DNA of 64,000 nucleotides, taken from assembly GCF_009914755.1 (NCBI RefSeq), contig NC_060930.1; one strand, given 5' to 3'. The stretch is from the human T2T-CHM13v2.0 reference genome, Homo sapiens. The notes beneath the pieces were generated by a model. The model was not told where the DNA came from, made no database searches, and saw only the letters and a list, made by a program, of their open reading frames with translations. Shown piece by piece: positions 42,556 through 49,169 of this stretch. A program made the translations under genes and the position numbers. The stretch's first letter is position 1, and each line of letters starts with the position of its first letter.

Positions 42556-44422
42556 GTGCGTAATTTGCTTCAGTGTTTATTACTCTCCTTCCCTGGCCCT
42601 ACTTCTCCCTGGGGAGAGGCATGTTAAGTTTAATATTAAACCTTTGCTCCCTTTACTGCACTTGACCTTGATCTTCTTGTCCAAAAGGGCAAAAGGAAGA
42701 GTTAATACTCCAAGAATAAGAGTATCTTTGTATTTGAACCCAAAAGGGGTTCTTTGTTTATAGGCTGTTTGACTGCTTTTTCAATCTCTTCGTCTGATGA
42801 CTGAGGAAATTGAAGAAGCAGCTCTCTGAAGTTAAACATGTTATGATTCTTGGGGCTAAGTTATCTAGAGCATGATTGCAAGGAATAGGACTGCTGAAGA
42901 AATACTTTATGGAAAGGGGCCATTTTTAAGACTGCTCAGGACATGGCAAATAGGAATCATCCCTAGCCAGAGTTAACTAGAGATGAAGGGACAGAGTTGA
43001 GGAATGAGGGCCATAGAGGAAAGAGGTCCTCATCTCATTCATAAAATAAGGGGTTGAGTTAGAATGAAGATAAGAAATAAGGTTTATTCTAAATGTCAGT
43101 TCAAACAATGCATTAGTGGCCCTGCTGAGGATTCTGAGGCATCTCAAGTTTGTGAGAGTAATTGTAATTGATTGGCAATGTCTGCCATGCTCAAGGAAAG
43201 GCAGAAAGGTAATTTCCATGCTATGGGTTTGCCATCCTTGACTAGAAGAGCCCGTAAAATTCTATAATCCTACTTAATTCTGCAAAGGCTGTAATGTAGT
43301 GTGTTTGGTTTAGCAAAGATACCCCTGTCCCGGTAGAGGAGGAGCAAAGGGGAGCCCTCTTCCTAAGCAGGAAGTCCCTTGAGGCTTCCATTCCCTTCAT
43401 GGCCCAGAGGAGACTGGAGTCTGGGGCCTAGGATGACACTTCAGTCCACTCCAGGAGAAGCTGCATTTGCTGATGAACAGAGAGAGGATGCTAAGATTAA
43501 TTGAGCTCTTACTTTGTGACAGGTAGAGCCACTGTCATCCCATACAGCTACTTTGTGCAAATTAGAAGGCAGCACCCCTTCCTCTGGGCAGGTGTGGTCT
43601 CATCCCAGGGAAAAGCCTCTAGCAAGTGAAGTACAGGTTGGATCTTGGCCATCGCTTGTTGCCTCAGGGTACAACCTGAACAACAGTATATGGCAGCCTT
43701 GGTATCAAGTGCTGGTCCTTCCGCAGCAATGGGAAATAGGTAATTACAGTACACTGTGATAAAGAATAAAGTAAAATAAATGTTTAATGAAAGCACCCAC
43801 CAAGAAACAGTATTATCTGAAGGATTGGGTTGATGGAGATGGGGAGCAAAAAAGGCTCCAGGGAAGAGGGGATGCTTAATGTGGGTCTTGAATGACAACT
43901 AGTGCTCCAGGGAGACAGGGAAAAGAAATTCAGCTCAAGCTGGGAGAATCACATGTGCAAAGGAACAGAGGTGTGAGACAGCATGTGGACTTGTGTGGGA
44001 CTCATATCCAGAGTATGTGAGGGCAGCAATGGGAAGTAGAACGTATCGAAGGGTGAGGAAAGAGCCAGAAGGCTGTGTTTGTCCTTCAGGTCACTGGGAG
44101 AAGTGGAGCAAGATGATTGTCAGTGACATTATGTAGGAAGCTACTAAAATTGTACAGACAAGAGACGGTTAGAAGGTGAAATCAGCTAGGCCAGATGGCG
44201 GATATAATAAGAAGCTGAGGGAGACGGAGGAATCTAGGATGTCACTCAGAATCTCTGGCTTGGGTGGATGAAAAGATAGCAGTGCCATTATTGTTTAATG
44301 GACACAGACTTTCAGTTTTGGAAGATGAAAAAAGTCCTGGAGATGGATGGTAGCGATAGTTGCACAACCCTGTGAATGTACTCAGTTCCACGGAACTATA
44401 CACTTAGAAATGGCTAAAATGG

Positions 44423-44600
44423 CTGAGAGGTGGGCCCTGGGGTGGCCAGCTGAGCTCGGAGCCAAGCAGGGTCAGGATAGACGAGGACGTGCTGACCACC
44501 CTGAAGATCCTCATCATCGGCGAGAGTGGGGTGGGCCAGTTCAGCCTCCTCTTGAGGCTCACAGATGATACTTTCAATCCAGAACTTGCAGCAACAATAA
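44423..44600 (+). pseudogene. Processed RAB18 5'UTR + exons 1-2 (start ATG>ATA at 44477)
   Basis: Translates (I)[40 protein letters not shown] vs RAB18 [41 protein letters not shown]; intron 1 absent at 44544/44545. Confidence 0.93.
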
Positions 44601-44949
44601 TATGATTAGCAAACAGTATGATTAGAACGTATGCCAGGTGAAACAAAGGGATCACTGTCATAGAAGTTGCCTCAAATTCCAGCTGCCTGGAAAGCAATGT
44701 AAAGTGGACCACCTGCCACAAAAAATATACTCAGTGAGCTCCAAGCAAGTTTTGGGGACTTCCCAAAACCAACGAAAACTTCAACTAAAAGTAGAATTTC
44801 AAAGTACTGTAATTTAGTTAGCAACCAACCCCCCACATCAAACATGAACATCAATGTCTGTACTGAACAGCCTCATATGCTGGACACAAAATTTGTGTTA
44901 TCGACCTGAATGTTACCAAGGATTCACGATTTCTGGCATCCATCGGTTT

Positions 44950-45270
44950 CATTTATTTATTTATTTACTTACTCATTTATTTATTTTGAGACGGAGATTC
45001 GCTCTTGTTGCCCAAGCTGGAGTATGATGGCACGATCTTGGCTCACTGCAACCTCTACCTCCTGGGTTCAAGCAATTCTTCTGCCTCAGCCTCCGGAATA
45101 GCTGAGATTATAGGTGTGCATCACCATGCCTGGCTCATTTTTTTTTAATTTTTAGTAGAAACAGGGTTTCACCATGTTAGCCAGGCTGGTCTCGAACTCC
45201 TGACTTCAGATGATCCACCTGCCTCAGCCTCCCAAAGTGCTGGGACAGGTGTGAGCCACCATGCCCGGCC
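44950..45270 (-). mobile_element. Alu (AluS-type) in PTCHD3-derived intron
   Basis: reverse Alu with (TTTA)n tail. Confidence 0.92.
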
Positions 45271-45300
45271 CCAACATTGTTAATTTAAGAAAGTTGGATT

Positions 45301-45600
45301 GGCCAGGCGCGGTGGCTCATGCCTGTAATCTCAACACGTTGGGAAGCCAAGGCAGGTGGATCACCTGAGGTCAGGAGTTCAAGACCAGCCTGCCCAACAT
45401 GATGAAACCCTGTCTCTACTAAAAATGCAAAAATTAGCTGGGCATGGTTGCAGGCACCTGTAATCCCAGCTACTCGGGAGGCTGAGGCAGGAGAATCGCT
45501 TGAACCTGGGTGGCGGAGGTTGCAGTGAGCCGAGATCGTGCCACTGCACTGCAGCCTGGGTGACACAGCGAGACTCGCCTTAAAAAAAAAAAAAAAAAGA
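45301..45600 (+). mobile_element. Alu (AluS-type) in PTCHD3-derived intron
   Basis: TSD aagaaagttggatt / aagaaagtcagatt. Confidence 0.93.
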
Positions 45601-47060: not shown

Positions 47061-47291
47061 GTCGCTTAACTAATCTGAAATGTGTTGGTGGCATGCTTGG
47101 CCTCTCAGGAGGTTCAGCAAATACAACGAACACTTCTTCAAGGCCATCAAATGCGTGCCTGTTCTGTGGGACTCGCAATGTATTGGGAGAATTTGAGTGT
47201 TTCTCCCCACAACACATAAACGGCACAGAAATTCCACGTGTCGTGAGTAACAGATTTTACCTTTCTTGCAGTCCACCCAGTAGCAGTTTGA

Positions 47292-47395
47292 GGTCAGACA
47301 GGTAATGCGACGACGTTGTAACAAGGTTCGAGAATAGCACATCTCACACACACGTGTGAACACCCAATCATCAGGCTCATGAACTACAAAAGAAT
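47292..47395 (-). ncRNA. U13 (SNORD13) snoRNA pseudogene copy, 104 nt
   Basis: reverse complement ATTCTTTTGTAGTTCATGAGCCTGATGATTGGGTGTTCA...GAACCTTGTTACAACG...ATTACCTGTCTGACC matches U13 (box C TGATGA, box D CTGA). Confidence 0.9.
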
Positions 47396-47409
47396 CCTCA
47401 AGCCTTTTA

Positions 47410-47449
47410 AATAAACTTCCACTCCTGCTCTGAAAAAAACAAAAACAAA
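47410..47449 (+). terminator. Polyadenylation signal and relic poly(A) tail of the retrocopy
   Basis: AATAAA 47410-47415; A-rich tail from 47433. Confidence 0.85.
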
Positions 47450-49169
47450 AACAGGCTAAAACGGTAAATTTTGTGTTATGCATATTTTACCACAATTTCT
47501 TAATGGAGGGGAAAAGATGGCAATGTCATTGGGACAAAGGGATATGGAGGGAGATGAGAAATCACAGCTCAGAAGCCTCAGCTGTGAATTTCTTCCACCA
47601 GCCTCCCAACAAGGCTCAGGTGCTTCTTGTTGGGCGTCCTCTGCACTGTCATAGGCTTCCATTAGCCATGCTGCTACCACAGTGTCATGGTTCCCAGCTG
47701 CCTCTGGAAGGTAGGAGCATGGAGGGGAGAGGCTGTCTTCATTTTGTATCCAAGGTGTGCACCTCTGACTTTGACCCTGGTTGAAAGGGAGGGTATGTGT
47801 GTATTAGGGGTGGGGGTTGGGGAAATAGGCCATCAGGAAAGGGAGGGAGTTCCAGCAGTGGCCTTTAATTTGATCATGAAATAGCAGACCATGTCATCAT
47901 CTGCTGGCAGGAATTTGGTATGGGGGCCTTAAAGAAGGCTTGGAATTATGAAACAAGAAGATGGGCACGAGAGCTGATCAAAGGAAAGGAAAAGGATTGT
48001 TCCAGGGTGACATACCTCAGGCTGGAAACCATTTCCATCAGTATAATTAGCAGTGTGATTTCCTCCAGCTGTGCTTAGCAGCATGACATCAGAAACAGCA
48101 AGCTGAGTGGTTGGAGGGACCCAGAACTGGGGCTTTGATAGGTAGGTGGGTTGTGAGTACAAAGCAGCAGAGAATTGAAGGTGCTGGGGAGAGAGTGGTT
48201 CGCATGCTTGACTGTGAGATCCAGTCTGGGTAGGGAAGGGAGTGAGGTCAGAAAGGAGCTGACAGATGGAAGGGGAGACCAGAGGACTGGATGATGTCAA
48301 GGGACCTATTTTGGGGGAATAAAGGAAGGGAAGTTTAGTGAGAGTGGATGACTCAGAAAACTGGAGGAATAAAATATGGAGCTGGGAAAGTTAAGACTTT
48401 GGAGGTGATATGGTTTCAGAGGATAATAAAGTCTTGGGTGTGGCCCAGAAGTGGTCAGCTGAAGGGGAATGAAAGGGGACAGTGTTGAGCAGGTTGGGGA
48501 ACTGCCAGGCCAGATAATTGGCAGGCCATCCACAAGGGGCAGGGGCAAGTCTGCTTGTGGGGCTGAGAACCAGGCTATGCTTCATGTACTGAGCACCTAA
48601 AGCTTTCTGCAGTCATCTCTGCTCTTCTCAGCCGACGGCTGCTCACTGCAGGCAGGACTGGAAATGGCAGGAAATAACAGATAAGAAGTAAAGGATAGCA
48701 CTTGGTAGACAGCCCAGTGGCTCCAGGGACACATGTGCTTCTCAGAGGCCAAGGAAGGACTGGTTCAGTCCTTGCTGCTAGCAGCACCTGCCAGCATGTG
48801 GATTGCAGTCCCATGTGCCTGGATGCAGACCCTGCAACTTTTTAGTTTTGATATTCATTGTTACCTCTGGGCAGGAATGAGCATGGTGAACTGAATAATA
48901 GAGATGAGACTGGATTACGCTGGTTTTGATCTGTTTCAGGACAGGAATTGTTTGACTTTGTGGTTGCTAAAAGAAAGGCAATTCTCCAAACTAAGACCAT
49001 ACTTTATTCCTGAGTTTAGAATTAACTGATTAAAATCCTGAGACTTATGTTTATTGTAGCACTATTCACAACAACCAAGATATAGAATCAACCTAATAAC
49101 CCACAAATCAGTCATTTGCAGCAGCACGGATGCACCAAGGATTTTCCACCAAAAAAAACAAGGCATTGA

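What the first reader, a model, noticed from the sequence alone, without database searches (positions are those of the whole stretch)
44408..47464. Chimeric retrocopy: spliced RAB18 exons 1-2 fused to ANTISENSE unspliced PTCHD3 plus antisense U13, as one poly(A)/TSD unit
Seen: a 15-bp TSD (aaatggctaaaatgg 44408-44422; aacaggctaaaacgg 47450-47464, 12/15) splits an old L1M 3' end. Inside, on +, are the RAB18 5'UTR and codons 1-41 with intron 1 precisely removed, stopping at what I recall is the exon 2 end (c.124, 44600). Next come PTCHD3 exon 2, intron 1 and exon 1 in the opposite orientation, with GT (45763) and AG (44713) still present, then a U13 copy, AATAAA and poly(A). Spliced RAB18 with unspliced PTCHD3 is what reverse transcription of an RNA that starts at a RAB18-type promoter and ends in an exon antisense to PTCHD3 would give. 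Knowledge (recalled): RAB18 and PTCHD3 are neighbours on 10p12. Inference: this 'PTCHD3 pseudogene' is really a fossil of a RAB18-derived antisense fusion transcript, plausibly from a rearranged 10p duplicate such as the PTCHD3P1/SVIL-AS1 locus.
Basis: partly seen in the sequence, partly recalled or inferred. Interest (0 to 1): 0.9.

Follow-up and report, generated by a model that had tools for sequence, protein, structure and literature searches.

The report
Retrocopy of extinct RAB18–antisense-PTCHD3 fusion RNA
This 3-kb stretch is a dead, reverse-transcribed copy of an old spliced RNA that began at a duplicated RAB18 promoter and ran backwards through a duplicated PTCHD3 gene; it is an ordinary kind of pseudogene with an unusually informative history.

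Summary
Window 44423-47449 is one L1-type insertion with a poly(A) tail. It sits between a 12-16 nt target-site duplication that splits an L1 3' end.

On the + strand it carries:
- RAB18 exon 1 and exon 2, with intron 1 removed.
- A 134-nt exon antisense to PTCHD3 exon 2.
- A 2-kb exon antisense to PTCHD3 intron 1, exon 1 and promoter, with two later Alus inside it.
- An antisense U13 copy, then 37 nt of an ERV LTR that supplies the AATAAA.

Both checkable internal junctions fit GT-AG splicing on the + strand.

Two independent sister retrocopies share the RAB18 exon 2 / antisense-PTCHD3 junction. One is on chr2 (probably PTCHD3P2) and one at chr10:32.14 Mb. Each has its own duplication and A-tail, and each has a different exon structure.

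The chr10:32 copy contains an exon made by an L1 insertion found only in the chr10:29.44 Mb duplicate (the PTCHD3P1/SVIL-AS1 region). That duplicate still has the RAB18 promoter, exon 1, intron 1 and exon 2 upstream of antisense PTCHD3.

The U13/LTR tail is unique to chr6, and I found no genomic source for it. It is most likely a lost terminal exon. Interest is moderate.

The parts
44407..44422 (.). 5' copy of the target-site duplication, inside an old L1 3' end (44288-44422).
   Evidence: Intact L1 copies read through ...AAAATGGCTAAAATGG|TAAATTTT. The same 12-16 nt recur at 47450-47464.
44423..44544 (+). RAB18-type exon 1: 5'UTR plus codons 1-22 and 2 nt. The start codon is decayed to ATA at 44477.
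   Evidence: 87% identical to chr10:27534712-27534831, and ends where that locus has CCAG|GTGAGG. About 2-5 nt of overlap with the TSD (GG/ATGG) is ambiguous.
44545..44600 (+). RAB18-type exon 2 (56 nt, c.69-124).
   Evidence: 92% identical to chr10:27540270-27540329, which is bounded there by TTTCAG| and |GTAAGC.
44601..44734 (+). Exon 3 of the source RNA, a mirror exon antisense to PTCHD3 exon 2. It covers PTCHD3 exon 2 minus its last 6 nt, plus 22 nt of PTCHD3 intron 1.
   Evidence: The acceptor is ...TTTTTACCTAAAG| (real locus) or CCTGCAG| (chr10:29.44). The donor is CTCAG|GTATAT in chr10:29.44.
44735..47292 (+). Exon 4 of the source RNA. It is antisense to the rest of PTCHD3 intron 1 (to 45763), PTCHD3 exon 1 (from 45764; RefSeq PTCHD3P3 is 45741-46558) and PTCHD3 5'/upstream sequence.
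   Evidence: The acceptor is TTTTTTAATCCCAG|TGAGC in chr10:29.44. The exon ends where the sister copies and the real locus read TTTCAG|GTAAG (CAA|GTAAG in the real locus).
44944..45276 (-). Alu inserted after retroposition.
   Evidence: Absent from the chr2, chr10:32, chr10:29 and real loci.
45296..45613 (+). Second Alu inserted after retroposition, with its own TSD AAGAAAGTTGGAT / AAGAAAGTCAGAT.
47292..47396 (-). Full-length U13 snoRNA copy, antisense to the unit (RefSeq LOC124901530). It differs from the chr8 U13 gene at 14 of 105 positions. It is a passenger pseudogene.
   Evidence: It has no A-tail or TSD of its own. It is bounded by exon 4 on one side and the LTR piece on the other.
47397..47433 (+). 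Last 37 nt of the R region of an ERV LTR family, with AATAAA at 47410-47415. It ends at that LTR's poly(A) site.
   Evidence: All 39 non-self matches cover only this part, at 93-100% identity. All 5 fetched copies are LTR-like, with TATAAAG upstream and U5 continuing downstream.
47434..47449 (+). Decayed poly(A) tail.
   Evidence: It directly abuts the 3' TSD copy.
47450..47464 (.). 3' copy of the target-site duplication. The L1 3' end continues to about 47500.

Best explanation
Window 44423-47449 is a single L1-mediated processed retrocopy of a capped, spliced, polyadenylated non-coding RNA. That RNA came from a rearranged 10p duplicate in which a copy of the RAB18 promoter, exon 1, intron 1 and exon 2 lies upstream of, and on the strand antisense to, a copy of the 5' part of PTCHD3.

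**Structure of the source RNA (five exons).**
- E1 and E2 are RAB18 exons 1 and 2.
- E3 is a 134-nt mirror exon. Its splice sites are the reverse complements of the PTCHD3 exon 2 splice signals.
- E4 is about 1.9 kb. It runs antisense through PTCHD3 intron 1, exon 1 and the promoter, up to a CAG|GTAAG donor.
- E5 is a terminal exon made of an antisense U13 retropseudogene sitting in an ERV LTR. The U13 A-tail, read backwards, gives Tn-CAG| as the acceptor. The LTR gives AATAAA and the cleavage site.

**Retroposition.** L1 machinery nicked TTTT/AA inside an old L1 3' end on chr6, primed on the poly(A) tail and copied the whole RNA. Two Alus landed in the copy later.

**Other isoforms.** The same gene left two more retrocopies from other isoforms:
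- chr2: E1-E2-E3 and a long E4 that ends at a downstream poly(A) site.
- chr10:32.14 Mb: E1-E2-E3, then an alternative acceptor in an L1 insertion, then the long E4.

**Fate of the source and coding potential.** The source locus survives only in damaged form at chr10:29.44 Mb. There E3 is inverted, and distal E4 and E5 are gone. The chr6 copy codes for nothing: the start codon is lost and a stop follows codon 42.

**Shown:** single insertion, splice-type junctions, sister copies, and the link of the chr10:32 copy to the chr10:29.44 lineage.

**Inferred:** that chr6 and chr2 came from the same locus, that the inversion and deletion came later, and that E5 was a spliced exon.
For: **One insertion.** The TSD is reconstructed from intact L1 copies, and the poly(A) abuts the 3' TSD.

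**E1/E2.** RAB18 intron 1 (5.4 kb at chr10:27.53 Mb) is absent exactly at its GT/AG.

**E2/E3.** chr6, chr2 and chr10:32 all read ...ACAATA(G)|(C)ATGAT.... That is the RAB18 donor ATAG|GTAAGC joined to sequence that in the PTCHD3 locus follows TTTTTACCTAAAG|.

**E3/E4.**
- chr6 and chr2 read ACTCAG|TGAGC (CGAGC in chr2).
- chr10:29.44 has CTCAG|GTATAT ... TTTTTTAATCCCAG|TGAGC.
- At least about 540 bp of sequence shared by the real and duplicate loci is missing between these points.

**Independent sister retrocopies.**
- chr2 has TSD AAATTATTAGA/AAGTTACTAGA and an A7 tail.
- chr10:32 has a perfect 12-nt TSD, CACATGGATTCT, and an A8 tail.
- Both end at the same point in the PTCHD3 upstream region.
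- The three 5' ends fall within about 25 nt in the RAB18 5' region.

**Link to the chr10:29.44 duplicate.**
- It holds about 1.1 kb of RAB18 upstream sequence, exon 1, intron 1 and exon 2 (85-91% identical), followed by PTCHD3 sequence.
- It carries an antisense L1-like insertion flanked by TATTTATA repeats that the real PTCHD3 locus lacks.
- The T15-ACAG| of that insertion is followed by exactly the sequence joined to E3 in the chr10:32 copy.

**E4/E5.**
- The sister copies and the real locus read TTTCAG|GTAAG (CAA|GTAAG in the real locus) and continue with PTCHD3 upstream sequence. chr6 switches to U13 antisense at that point.
- Fifteen of 16 other U13 copies are A-tailed retropseudogenes. 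Nine of the 16 read GACC-TGA, which read backwards is TCAG|GTCAGAC. Two of 4 further copies show TTTCAG|GT directly.
- The 5' G of U13 abuts LTR sequence at CT(c)AAGCCTTTT. That fits a U13 insertion at TTT/AAAAGG on the other strand.
Against: **No present human locus can make this RNA.**
- In chr10:29.44 the E3 segment (equivalent to 1.27 kb of the PTCHD3 locus) is inverted.
- Homology there stops inside PTCHD3 exon 1, so distal E4 is absent.

**No source was found for the U13/LTR junction.**
- It is unique to chr6 at up to 3 mismatches in 35 nt and in 24 nt.
- No U13 or LTR of this family lies in chr10:29418001-29557000 or chr10:27439000-27478000.
- The expected divergence from a surviving source is about 16%, so the mismatch-limited searches could have missed one.
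- 55 kb between PTCHD3 and RAB18 were not read.

**The E4/E5 join has a mismatch.** It reads TTTGAG|GT in chr6, where splicing predicts TTTCAG|GT. This is one difference, within the expected decay.

**Sequence distances do not place the copies on the duplicate's branch.**
- At sites where the real and duplicate loci differ, chr6 is like the real locus at 58 and like the duplicate at 56. For chr2 the counts are 63 and 54, and for chr10:32 they are 71 and 49 (E4 proximal part).
- The tree is therefore star-like.
- The short terminal branch of chr10:32 (about 4%, against about 9% for chr6 and chr2) is unexplained.

**Naming.** Pfam gave no family for the PTCHD3 exon 1 reading frames. The PTCHD3 name rests on the RefSeq label for this window and on recalled gene positions.
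Confidence: 0.85

Rival explanations
1. The body is as described above, but the U13-antisense/LTR/poly(A) tail comes from a second RNA. L1 reverse transcriptase would have started on an LTR-terminated transcript that contained an antisense U13 pseudogene. It would then have jumped, at the 8-nt microhomology TTT(C/G)AGGT, onto the RAB18/antisense-PTCHD3 RNA. Alternatively, the two pieces were already adjacent in the source DNA without splicing.
For: - No genomic source of a U13/LTR exon was found near any PTCHD3 or RAB18 copy.
- chr6 reads TTTGAG at the join. That matches neither a clean E4 end (TTTCAG) nor the usual U13 trailer.
- The two partners share TTTxAGGT, which would favour a jump.
- Multi-part L1 chimeras made by template jumps are described in PMC2104539 and PMC4476161 (search listing and abstracts only).
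Against: - The break in the first RNA falls exactly at a strong donor (CAG|GTAAG), and the break in the tail falls exactly at a Tn-CAG| acceptor. That is expected for splicing and would be a double coincidence for a jump.
- A second RNA with U13 antisense 37 nt before an LTR poly(A) site is needed in any case, and none is found in the genome.
Confidence: 0.15
2. Back-splicing at the real 10p12 locus. A + strand transcript covering antisense PTCHD3, the 90-kb spacer and RAB18 exons 1-2 would join the RAB18 exon 2 donor back to the upstream antisense-PTCHD3 acceptor. That is a scrambled or circular RNA, which was then retrocopied.
For: In the real locus the + strand order is antisense PTCHD3 (chr10:27.442-27.445 Mb) and then RAB18 (27.5347 Mb). 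The retrocopy's exon order is a permutation of it. The real locus does have the E3 acceptor, AAAG|CATG.
Against: - All three copies start within about 25 nt in the RAB18 5' region and end at poly(A) sites, as linear capped RNAs do.
- The real locus lacks the E3 donor and the E4 acceptor. It reads CAG|AT and CCCAA|.
- The chr10:32 copy contains an exon from an L1 insertion that the real locus does not have.
- A DNA locus with the collinear order exists at chr10:29.44.
Confidence: 0.03
3. Nested independent events at one chr6 site: a RAB18 retrocopy, a separately inserted or duplicated inverted PTCHD3 genomic fragment, and a U13 pseudogene.
For: None beyond the mixed orientation of the parts.
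Against: - The same RAB18/PTCHD3 join to the base is present at chr2 and chr10:32, each with different TSDs.
- One TSD brackets the whole unit.
- There is no internal poly(A) or TSD at the joins, and U13 lacks the A-tail and TSD that 15 of 16 other copies have.
Confidence: 0.01
4. PTCHD3P3 is an ordinary processed pseudogene of PTCHD3 mRNA, as the gene name suggests.
For: The RefSeq label PTCHD3P3 at 45741-46558 (hub table), and homology to PTCHD3 exon 1.
Against: - PTCHD3 intron 1 is retained with its GT and AG.
- The poly(A) tail and signal are on the opposite strand.
- PTCHD3 upstream sequence is included.
Confidence: 0.01

Closest known systems
L1-mediated processed pseudogenes (retrocopies) of spliced Pol II transcripts
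   Same: TSD, TTTT/AA-type target, poly(A) tail after AATAAA, parental introns removed, near full-length 5' end, and no function apparent.
   Different: The template was not an mRNA of either named gene. It was a chimeric non-coding RNA. Two thirds of the copy is antisense, genomic-type PTCHD3 sequence that includes an intron and the promoter.
Retrocopies of fusion or chimeric transcripts, and chimeric retrogenes (reviewed in PMC5470649, passages read)
   Same: Parts of two genes sit in one retroposed unit, joined at exon borders.
   Different: In the review, most cases described as chimeric retrogenes acquire their partner after insertion. Here the chimera existed in the RNA before retroposition. 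It came from a rearranged segmental duplicate, and one partner is antisense.
L1 reverse-transcriptase template-switch chimeras such as U6-L1 (PMC4476161 and PMC2104539; listing and abstracts only)
   Same: A full-length small nuclear or nucleolar RNA copy sits inside a poly(A)/TSD unit next to pieces of other transcripts.
   Different: In those chimeras all parts share one orientation, and the small RNA forms the 5' part. Here U13 is antisense and lies near the 3' end. The joins fall at splice consensus sites.
Exonisation of antisense retroelements (antisense Alu poly-T as a 3' splice site) and LTR-supplied polyadenylation
   Same: The proposed E5 uses the reversed A-tail of a retropseudogene as a polypyrimidine tract plus CAG, and an LTR R region as the poly(A) signal.
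   Different: The donor element is a U13 snoRNA retropseudogene rather than an Alu. The exon is known only from this retrocopy. The Alu analogy is recalled knowledge.

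Membership tests
L1-mediated processed retrocopy | Target-site duplication flanking the whole unit. | tested here: met
   Intact L1 copies read through the site. 12-16 nt are duplicated at 44407-44422 and 47450-47464.
L1-mediated processed retrocopy | 3' poly(A) tail preceded by a polyadenylation signal on the same strand. 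| tested here: met
   AATAAA is at 47410-47415 and the A-rich tail at 47434-47449, next to the TSD.
L1-mediated processed retrocopy | Introns of the source transcript removed at GT-AG. | tested here: met
   RAB18 intron 1 is removed, the E2/E3 join is at donor and acceptor consensus, and the E3/E4 join matches GT...AG of chr10:29.44.
L1-mediated processed retrocopy | L1 endonuclease-type nick site (TTTT/AA). | tested here: met
   The reconstructed empty site is ACACTT|AAAATGG..., which is TTTT/AA on the bottom strand. The consensus motif is recalled knowledge.
Retrocopy of a pre-existing chimeric (fusion) transcript | The same inter-gene junction in independent insertions. | tested here: met
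   chr2 and chr10:32 share the join and have their own TSDs and tails.
Retrocopy of a pre-existing chimeric (fusion) transcript | A genomic locus with all exons collinear on one strand. | tested here: inconclusive
   chr10:29.44 has E1, E2 and proximal E4 in order on the + strand, but E3 is inverted and distal E4 and E5 are absent.
L1-RT template-switch chimera (U6-L1 type) | All parts in the same transcriptional orientation, with the small RNA as the 5' part. | tested here: not met
   U13 is antisense and lies 3' of the body.
L1-RT template-switch chimera (U6-L1 type) | Junctions unrelated to splice sites. | tested here: not met
   All junctions fall at donor or acceptor consensus.
Functional U13 snoRNA gene (RefSeq LOC124901530) | Match to the U13 covariance model with boxes C and D. 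| tested here: met
   (99.4 bits). The box C 17-mer is intact (chr6 hit with 0 mismatches).
Functional U13 snoRNA gene (RefSeq LOC124901530) | Own transcription unit, with flanks like the chr8 gene. | tested here: not met
   Flanks match the chr8 gene for only 2-4 nt. There are 14 mismatches in 105 nt. The copy is embedded antisense in a retrocopy. Expression was not tested.
Processed pseudogene of PTCHD3 mRNA | PTCHD3 introns removed and poly(A) on the PTCHD3 sense strand. | tested here: not met
   Intron 1 is retained with its GT and AG. The tail is on the opposite strand.

The most novel reading that the evidence does not exclude
The three retrocopies (chr6, chr2, chr10:32) would be the only surviving record of an extinct, germline-expressed primate lncRNA gene. 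In that gene a duplicated RAB18 promoter drove transcription antisense through a duplicated PTCHD3 5' end.

They would preserve three isoforms. One of them includes a terminal exon whose genomic source no longer exists in the human genome. That exon was built from an antisense U13 retropseudogene (providing the 3' splice site) inside an ERV LTR (providing the poly(A) signal).

Because the RNA ran antisense across PTCHD3's promoter, exon 1, intron 1 and exon 2, retroposition moved a genomic-style 5' gene fragment, promoter included, to new chromosomes. That would be an RNA-mediated route for duplicating a promoter. It could explain why these pseudogenes carry promoter or enhancer marks.
Probability: 0.5. 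Interest if true: 0.55.

Novelty: new member of a known kind. Interest (0 to 1): 0.4.

Why it matters
- **Annotation.** "PTCHD3P3" (and probably PTCHD3P2) is not a copy of PTCHD3 mRNA. It is a retrocopy of a RAB18-promoter-driven antisense RNA. The RAB18 part is not annotated. The RefSeq "U13 snoRNA" model here is a passenger pseudogene.
- **Method.** Sister retrocopies can be used to rebuild the exon structure and isoforms of a gene that has since been rearranged or lost.
- **Promoter copying.** Retroposition of an antisense transcript can copy a gene's promoter, first exon and intron together. Ordinary retrocopies do not do that.
- **Limits.** No protein-coding or regulatory function is shown, so the value lies in annotation and evolutionary history rather than mechanism.

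Tried and rejected
- **Source of the U13/LTR tail.** I tried a whole-genome search with a 63-nt junction probe, junction patterns of 35 nt and 24 nt at up to 3 mismatches (with a check of the 4 weak hits), and BLAST of 139 kb around chr10:29.44 Mb and 39 kb at and beyond PTCHD3. Only the chr6 site itself was found. Four U13 copies whose matches seemed to run into the LTR part proved to be unrelated pseudogenes.
- **Other U13 copies on chr10.** The top 50 Rfam U13 hits include none on chr10 at 27-33 Mb. Among box C 17-mer hits with 0 or 1 mismatches, the only chr10 hits lie at 72-74 Mb. Both lists are truncated (50 scored of many candidates; 598 places not listed), so this is not exhaustive.
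- **Placing the retrocopies by sequence distance**. The result was a star-like pattern that does not show which lineage they came from. Only the shared L1 insertion polarises the chr10:32 copy.
- **Pfam on PTCHD3 exon 1 reading frames**: no family.
- **Literature.** Searches for PTCHD3P1/P2/P3, for RAB18 + PTCHD3 + retrocopy, and for SVIL-AS1 + RAB18 found only expression, GWAS and methylation listings, and none on structure. A search for antisense-transcript retrocopies that carry promoters listed 5 papers, none on this by title or abstract. These searches cover only the held open-access library.
- **Rejected readings.** Nested independent insertions, DNA-level duplication, back-splicing at the real locus, and a plain PTCHD3 mRNA pseudogene (see rival explanations).

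Full report
**What is in the window**

The window is human chr6:110422001-110486000 (hub table; one search confirms the place in the assembly).

The sequence on both sides of the finding is the 3' end of an old, highly repeated L1-type element (1696 first-look candidates). Eight intact copies were fetched. Five of the 8 aligned across the insertion point. All 6 that were printed read without a break ...ACACTTAAAATGG(C/T)TAAAATGG|TAAATTTTATGTTATG....

In the window the left flank ends ...AGAAATGGCTAAAATGG at 44422. After an A-rich run, the right flank resumes AGGCTAAAACGG|TAAATTTTGTGTTATG at 47453. So 12 nt are duplicated for certain, and up to about 16 nt if the A's that merge with the tail are counted. 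The bottom-strand nick site is TTTT/AA. Everything from 44423 to 47449 therefore entered in one L1-type event, except for two later Alus (below).

**Anatomy on the + strand**

*E1 and E2 (RAB18).*
- 44423-44544 and 44545-44600 match chr10:27534712-27534831 and chr10:27540270-27540329 (88% and 92%).
- At that locus the two pieces are 5.4 kb apart. They are bounded by CCAG|GTGAGG, TTTCAG|CCTG and ATAG|GTAAGC.
- The 41 codons from 44477 are Rab-18 (PDB 1X3S, E 7.6e-17; other Rabs 5e-06 or worse).
- The start codon is ATA here, and a stop follows codon 42.

*E3.*
- From 44601 the sequence matches the + strand of chr10:27.442 Mb, the strand antisense to an open 430-codon first exon. I take this locus to be PTCHD3 for three reasons: RefSeq calls 45741-46558 "PTCHD3P3", the locus lies 90 kb from RAB18 as I recall for 10p12.1, and the reading frame is intact only there.
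- The join is ...ACAATA(G)|(C)ATGAT....
- In the PTCHD3 locus the sequence before CATGATG is CTTTTTACCTAAAG. That is a pyrimidine tract plus AG, formed by the reverse complement of PTCHD3's own exon 2 donor (TTTAG|GTAAAAAG).
- The join therefore lies 6 nt inside PTCHD3 exon 2. It is what splicing of the RAB18 exon 2 donor to a + strand acceptor would give.

*E3/E4 join.*
- At 44734/44735 the copy reads ACTCAG|TGAGCTCC.
- The real locus has about 830 bp between these points. At least 540 bp of that is also present in the chr10:29.44 duplicate, so it is ancestral.
- The duplicate reads CTCAG|GTATAT ... TTTTTTAATCCCAG|TGAGC there, a clean GT-AG intron on the + strand. The real locus reads CAG|AT and CCCAA|.
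- So the antisense part is not simply unspliced. An intron of the antisense RNA, lying within PTCHD3 intron 1, was removed. PTCHD3's own GT (45763) and AG (44713) remain.

*E4.*
- It runs on through PTCHD3 exon 1 and about 700 bp of 5' and upstream sequence, to 47292.
- The two Alus (44944-45276 and 45296-45613) are missing from every related locus. The second has its own TSD.

**Sister copies**

The genome holds exactly two other places with the RAB18 exon 2 / antisense-PTCHD3 join.

*The chr2 copy.*
- Location: chr2:170247006-170250164.
- It has E1-E2-E3-E4 spliced in the same way.
- It does not stop at the CAG|GTAAG point. It runs about 975 bp further into PTCHD3 upstream sequence.
- It ends in A7 and is flanked by AAATTATTAGA / AAGTTACTAGA.
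- A paper lists PTCHD3P2 at chr2:170.62 Mb in an older build (PMC9112484, passages read). That fits this copy, but I could not confirm the name.

*The chr10:32 copy.*
- Location: about chr10:32.137-32.141 Mb, minus strand.
- It has E1-E2-E3, then extra sequence, then E4 to the same end point.
- It has an A8 tail and a perfect 12-nt TSD, CACATGGATTCT.

The three copies begin within about 25 nt of each other in the RAB18 5' region. That is expected for full-length copies of RNAs from one promoter. An identical inter-gene join in three separate insertions rules out nested independent events. It also rules out a one-off polymerase jump for the RAB18/PTCHD3 junction.

**The source**

chr10:29.44 Mb lies next to SVIL. 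PTCHD3P1 is reported alongside SVIL and SVIL-AS1 in PMC12558498 (passage read). This locus is a DNA-level duplicate.
- It keeps about 1.1 kb of RAB18 upstream sequence, exon 1, the 5.6-kb intron 1 and exon 2 with good splice sites.
- PTCHD3 sequence follows 2.7 kb further on.
- It also carries an antisense L1-like insertion flanked by TATTTATA repeats. The real PTCHD3 locus lacks this, so it is a derived character.
- The reversed A-tail of that insertion gives T15-ACAG|TAAAAGAAAGTC....
- The chr10:32 copy reads ...ACTCAG|TAAAATAAAGTC... and then follows the insertion and E4.

The chr10:32 retrocopy therefore came from an RNA of this duplicate's lineage, made at a time when E3 pointed the same way as E4.

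Today E3 and 1.27 kb around it are inverted in the duplicate, between Alus of opposite orientation. Homology also ends inside PTCHD3 exon 1. I infer that the inversion and truncation are later damage, or that the true source was a lost sister of this duplicate.

For chr6 and chr2, the link to this lineage rests on the shared gene order, the shared E2/E3 join, and the GT/AG state of the E3-E4 intron. It does not rest on a unique marker.

Distances do not help (E4 proximal part).
- At sites where the real and duplicate loci differ, chr6 is like the real locus at 58 and like the duplicate at 56. For chr2 the counts are 63 and 54, and for chr10:32 they are 71 and 49.
- Terminal branches are about 8.9% (chr6), 8.6% (chr2) and 4% (chr10:32).
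- That pattern suggests retroposition close in time to the duplication, tens of millions of years ago. This is a rough inference.
- The short chr10:32 branch is unexplained.

**The U13/LTR tail**

The sister copies and the real locus read ...GCAGTTTCAG|GTAAG... (CAA|GTAAG in the real locus) and continue with PTCHD3 upstream sequence. chr6 reads ...GCAGTTTGAG|GTCAGACAGG..., which is the exact 3' end of U13 in antisense.

U13 is full length. It has 14 mismatches in 105 nt against the chr8 gene. Its 5' G abuts CTCAAGCCTTTTAAATAAACTTCCACTCCTGCTCTGA. Those 37 nt are the end of the R region of an ERV LTR family.
- All 39 non-self matches cover only this part, at 93-100% identity.
- All 5 fetched copies show TATAAAG upstream and continue past ...CTCTGA into U5.
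- The chr6 tail starts exactly where those LTRs would be cleaved.

Other U13 copies are standard retropseudogenes.
- Fifteen of 16 have an A-rich tail, several have clear TSDs, and 9 of 16 read GACC-TGA-(A)n.
- Read backwards, this gives Tn-TCAG|GTCAGAC, a consensus 3' splice site. It is seen directly in 2 of 4 further copies.
- The LTR side fits a U13 insertion at TTT/AAAAGG on the opposite strand.

The simplest reading is that a U13 pseudogene sat antisense in an LTR downstream of E4. The E4 donor was spliced to it, and the LTR polyadenylated the RNA.

I could not find such a locus. Two limits apply. Expected divergence of about 16% weakens the mismatch-limited searches. A reverse-transcriptase jump at the shared TTTxAGGT remains possible (about 15%).

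**Comparison and verdict**

This is a processed retrocopy in every tested respect (see the membership table). It is not a PTCHD3 mRNA pseudogene, not a U6-L1-type template-switch chimera, and not a working U13 gene.

Its unusual features are three:
- The template was a chimeric antisense lncRNA from a rearranged duplicate.
- Three isoforms were fossilised at three sites.
- The copy carries PTCHD3's promoter, exon 1, part of intron 1 and exon 2 in genomic form on the opposite strand.

No paper in the held library describes this. Retrocopies of chimeric transcripts and exonised retroelements are well known (PMC5470649, passages read). I therefore rate it a new member of a known kind. Interest is 0.4. 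Confidence is 0.85 for the main reading and about 0.6 for the spliced-E5 sub-claim.

Noticed in passing
L044, L053, L055, L058 (U13 copies on chr15, chr7, chr8, chr6:151.36 Mb): Four of 16 U13 retropseudogenes carry 7-9 nt (TGAACTTGG-like) that match the 3' flank of the chr8 U13 gene (tgaacttcaagg), ahead of the A-rich run where there is one (L058 has none). They were probably copied from 3'-extended U13 precursors rather than from mature U13.
   Followed up: partly
L015 5598-5914 (chr10:29453600-29453913): The chr10:29.44 duplicate ends its PTCHD3 homology with three tandem copies of a roughly 100-bp piece of PTCHD3 exon 1. Unrelated sequence follows.
   Followed up: partly
L015 1597-2868 (chr10:29449597-29450868): The inverted 1.27-kb segment holding the PTCHD3 exon 2 equivalent is bracketed by Alu sequence in opposite orientations. 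That is compatible with an Alu-Alu inversion.
   Followed up: partly
L015 3741-4140 versus L012 (chr10:32 copy): About 400 bp inside the L1-like insertion of the duplicate is absent from the chr10:32 retrocopy. The downstream edge is a good acceptor (TTATCTTCCAG|CTCTG), but no GT donor is visible upstream today. It could be a further intron or a later indel; this is undecided.
   Followed up: no
window 46553-46969: This GC-rich stretch, around the PTCHD3 start-codon region, aligns between the chr6 and chr2 copies but not by BLAST with the real PTCHD3 locus. The chr10:32 copy lacks 46285-46929 altogether. The real locus or the source lineage has been remodelled here.
   Followed up: no
window 47079-48278: The RefSeq enhancer feature covers the carried PTCHD3 upstream sequence, the U13 copy, the LTR piece and the flanking L1. 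Whether the carried promoter contributes to it was not tested.
   Followed up: no
L013 6931 onward (chr10:27445930): The shared 3' end of the chr2 and chr10:32 copies falls exactly where a different repeat, which looks like the start of a MaLR-type LTR by recall, begins in the real locus. No canonical AATAAA lies within 30 nt upstream.
   Followed up: no
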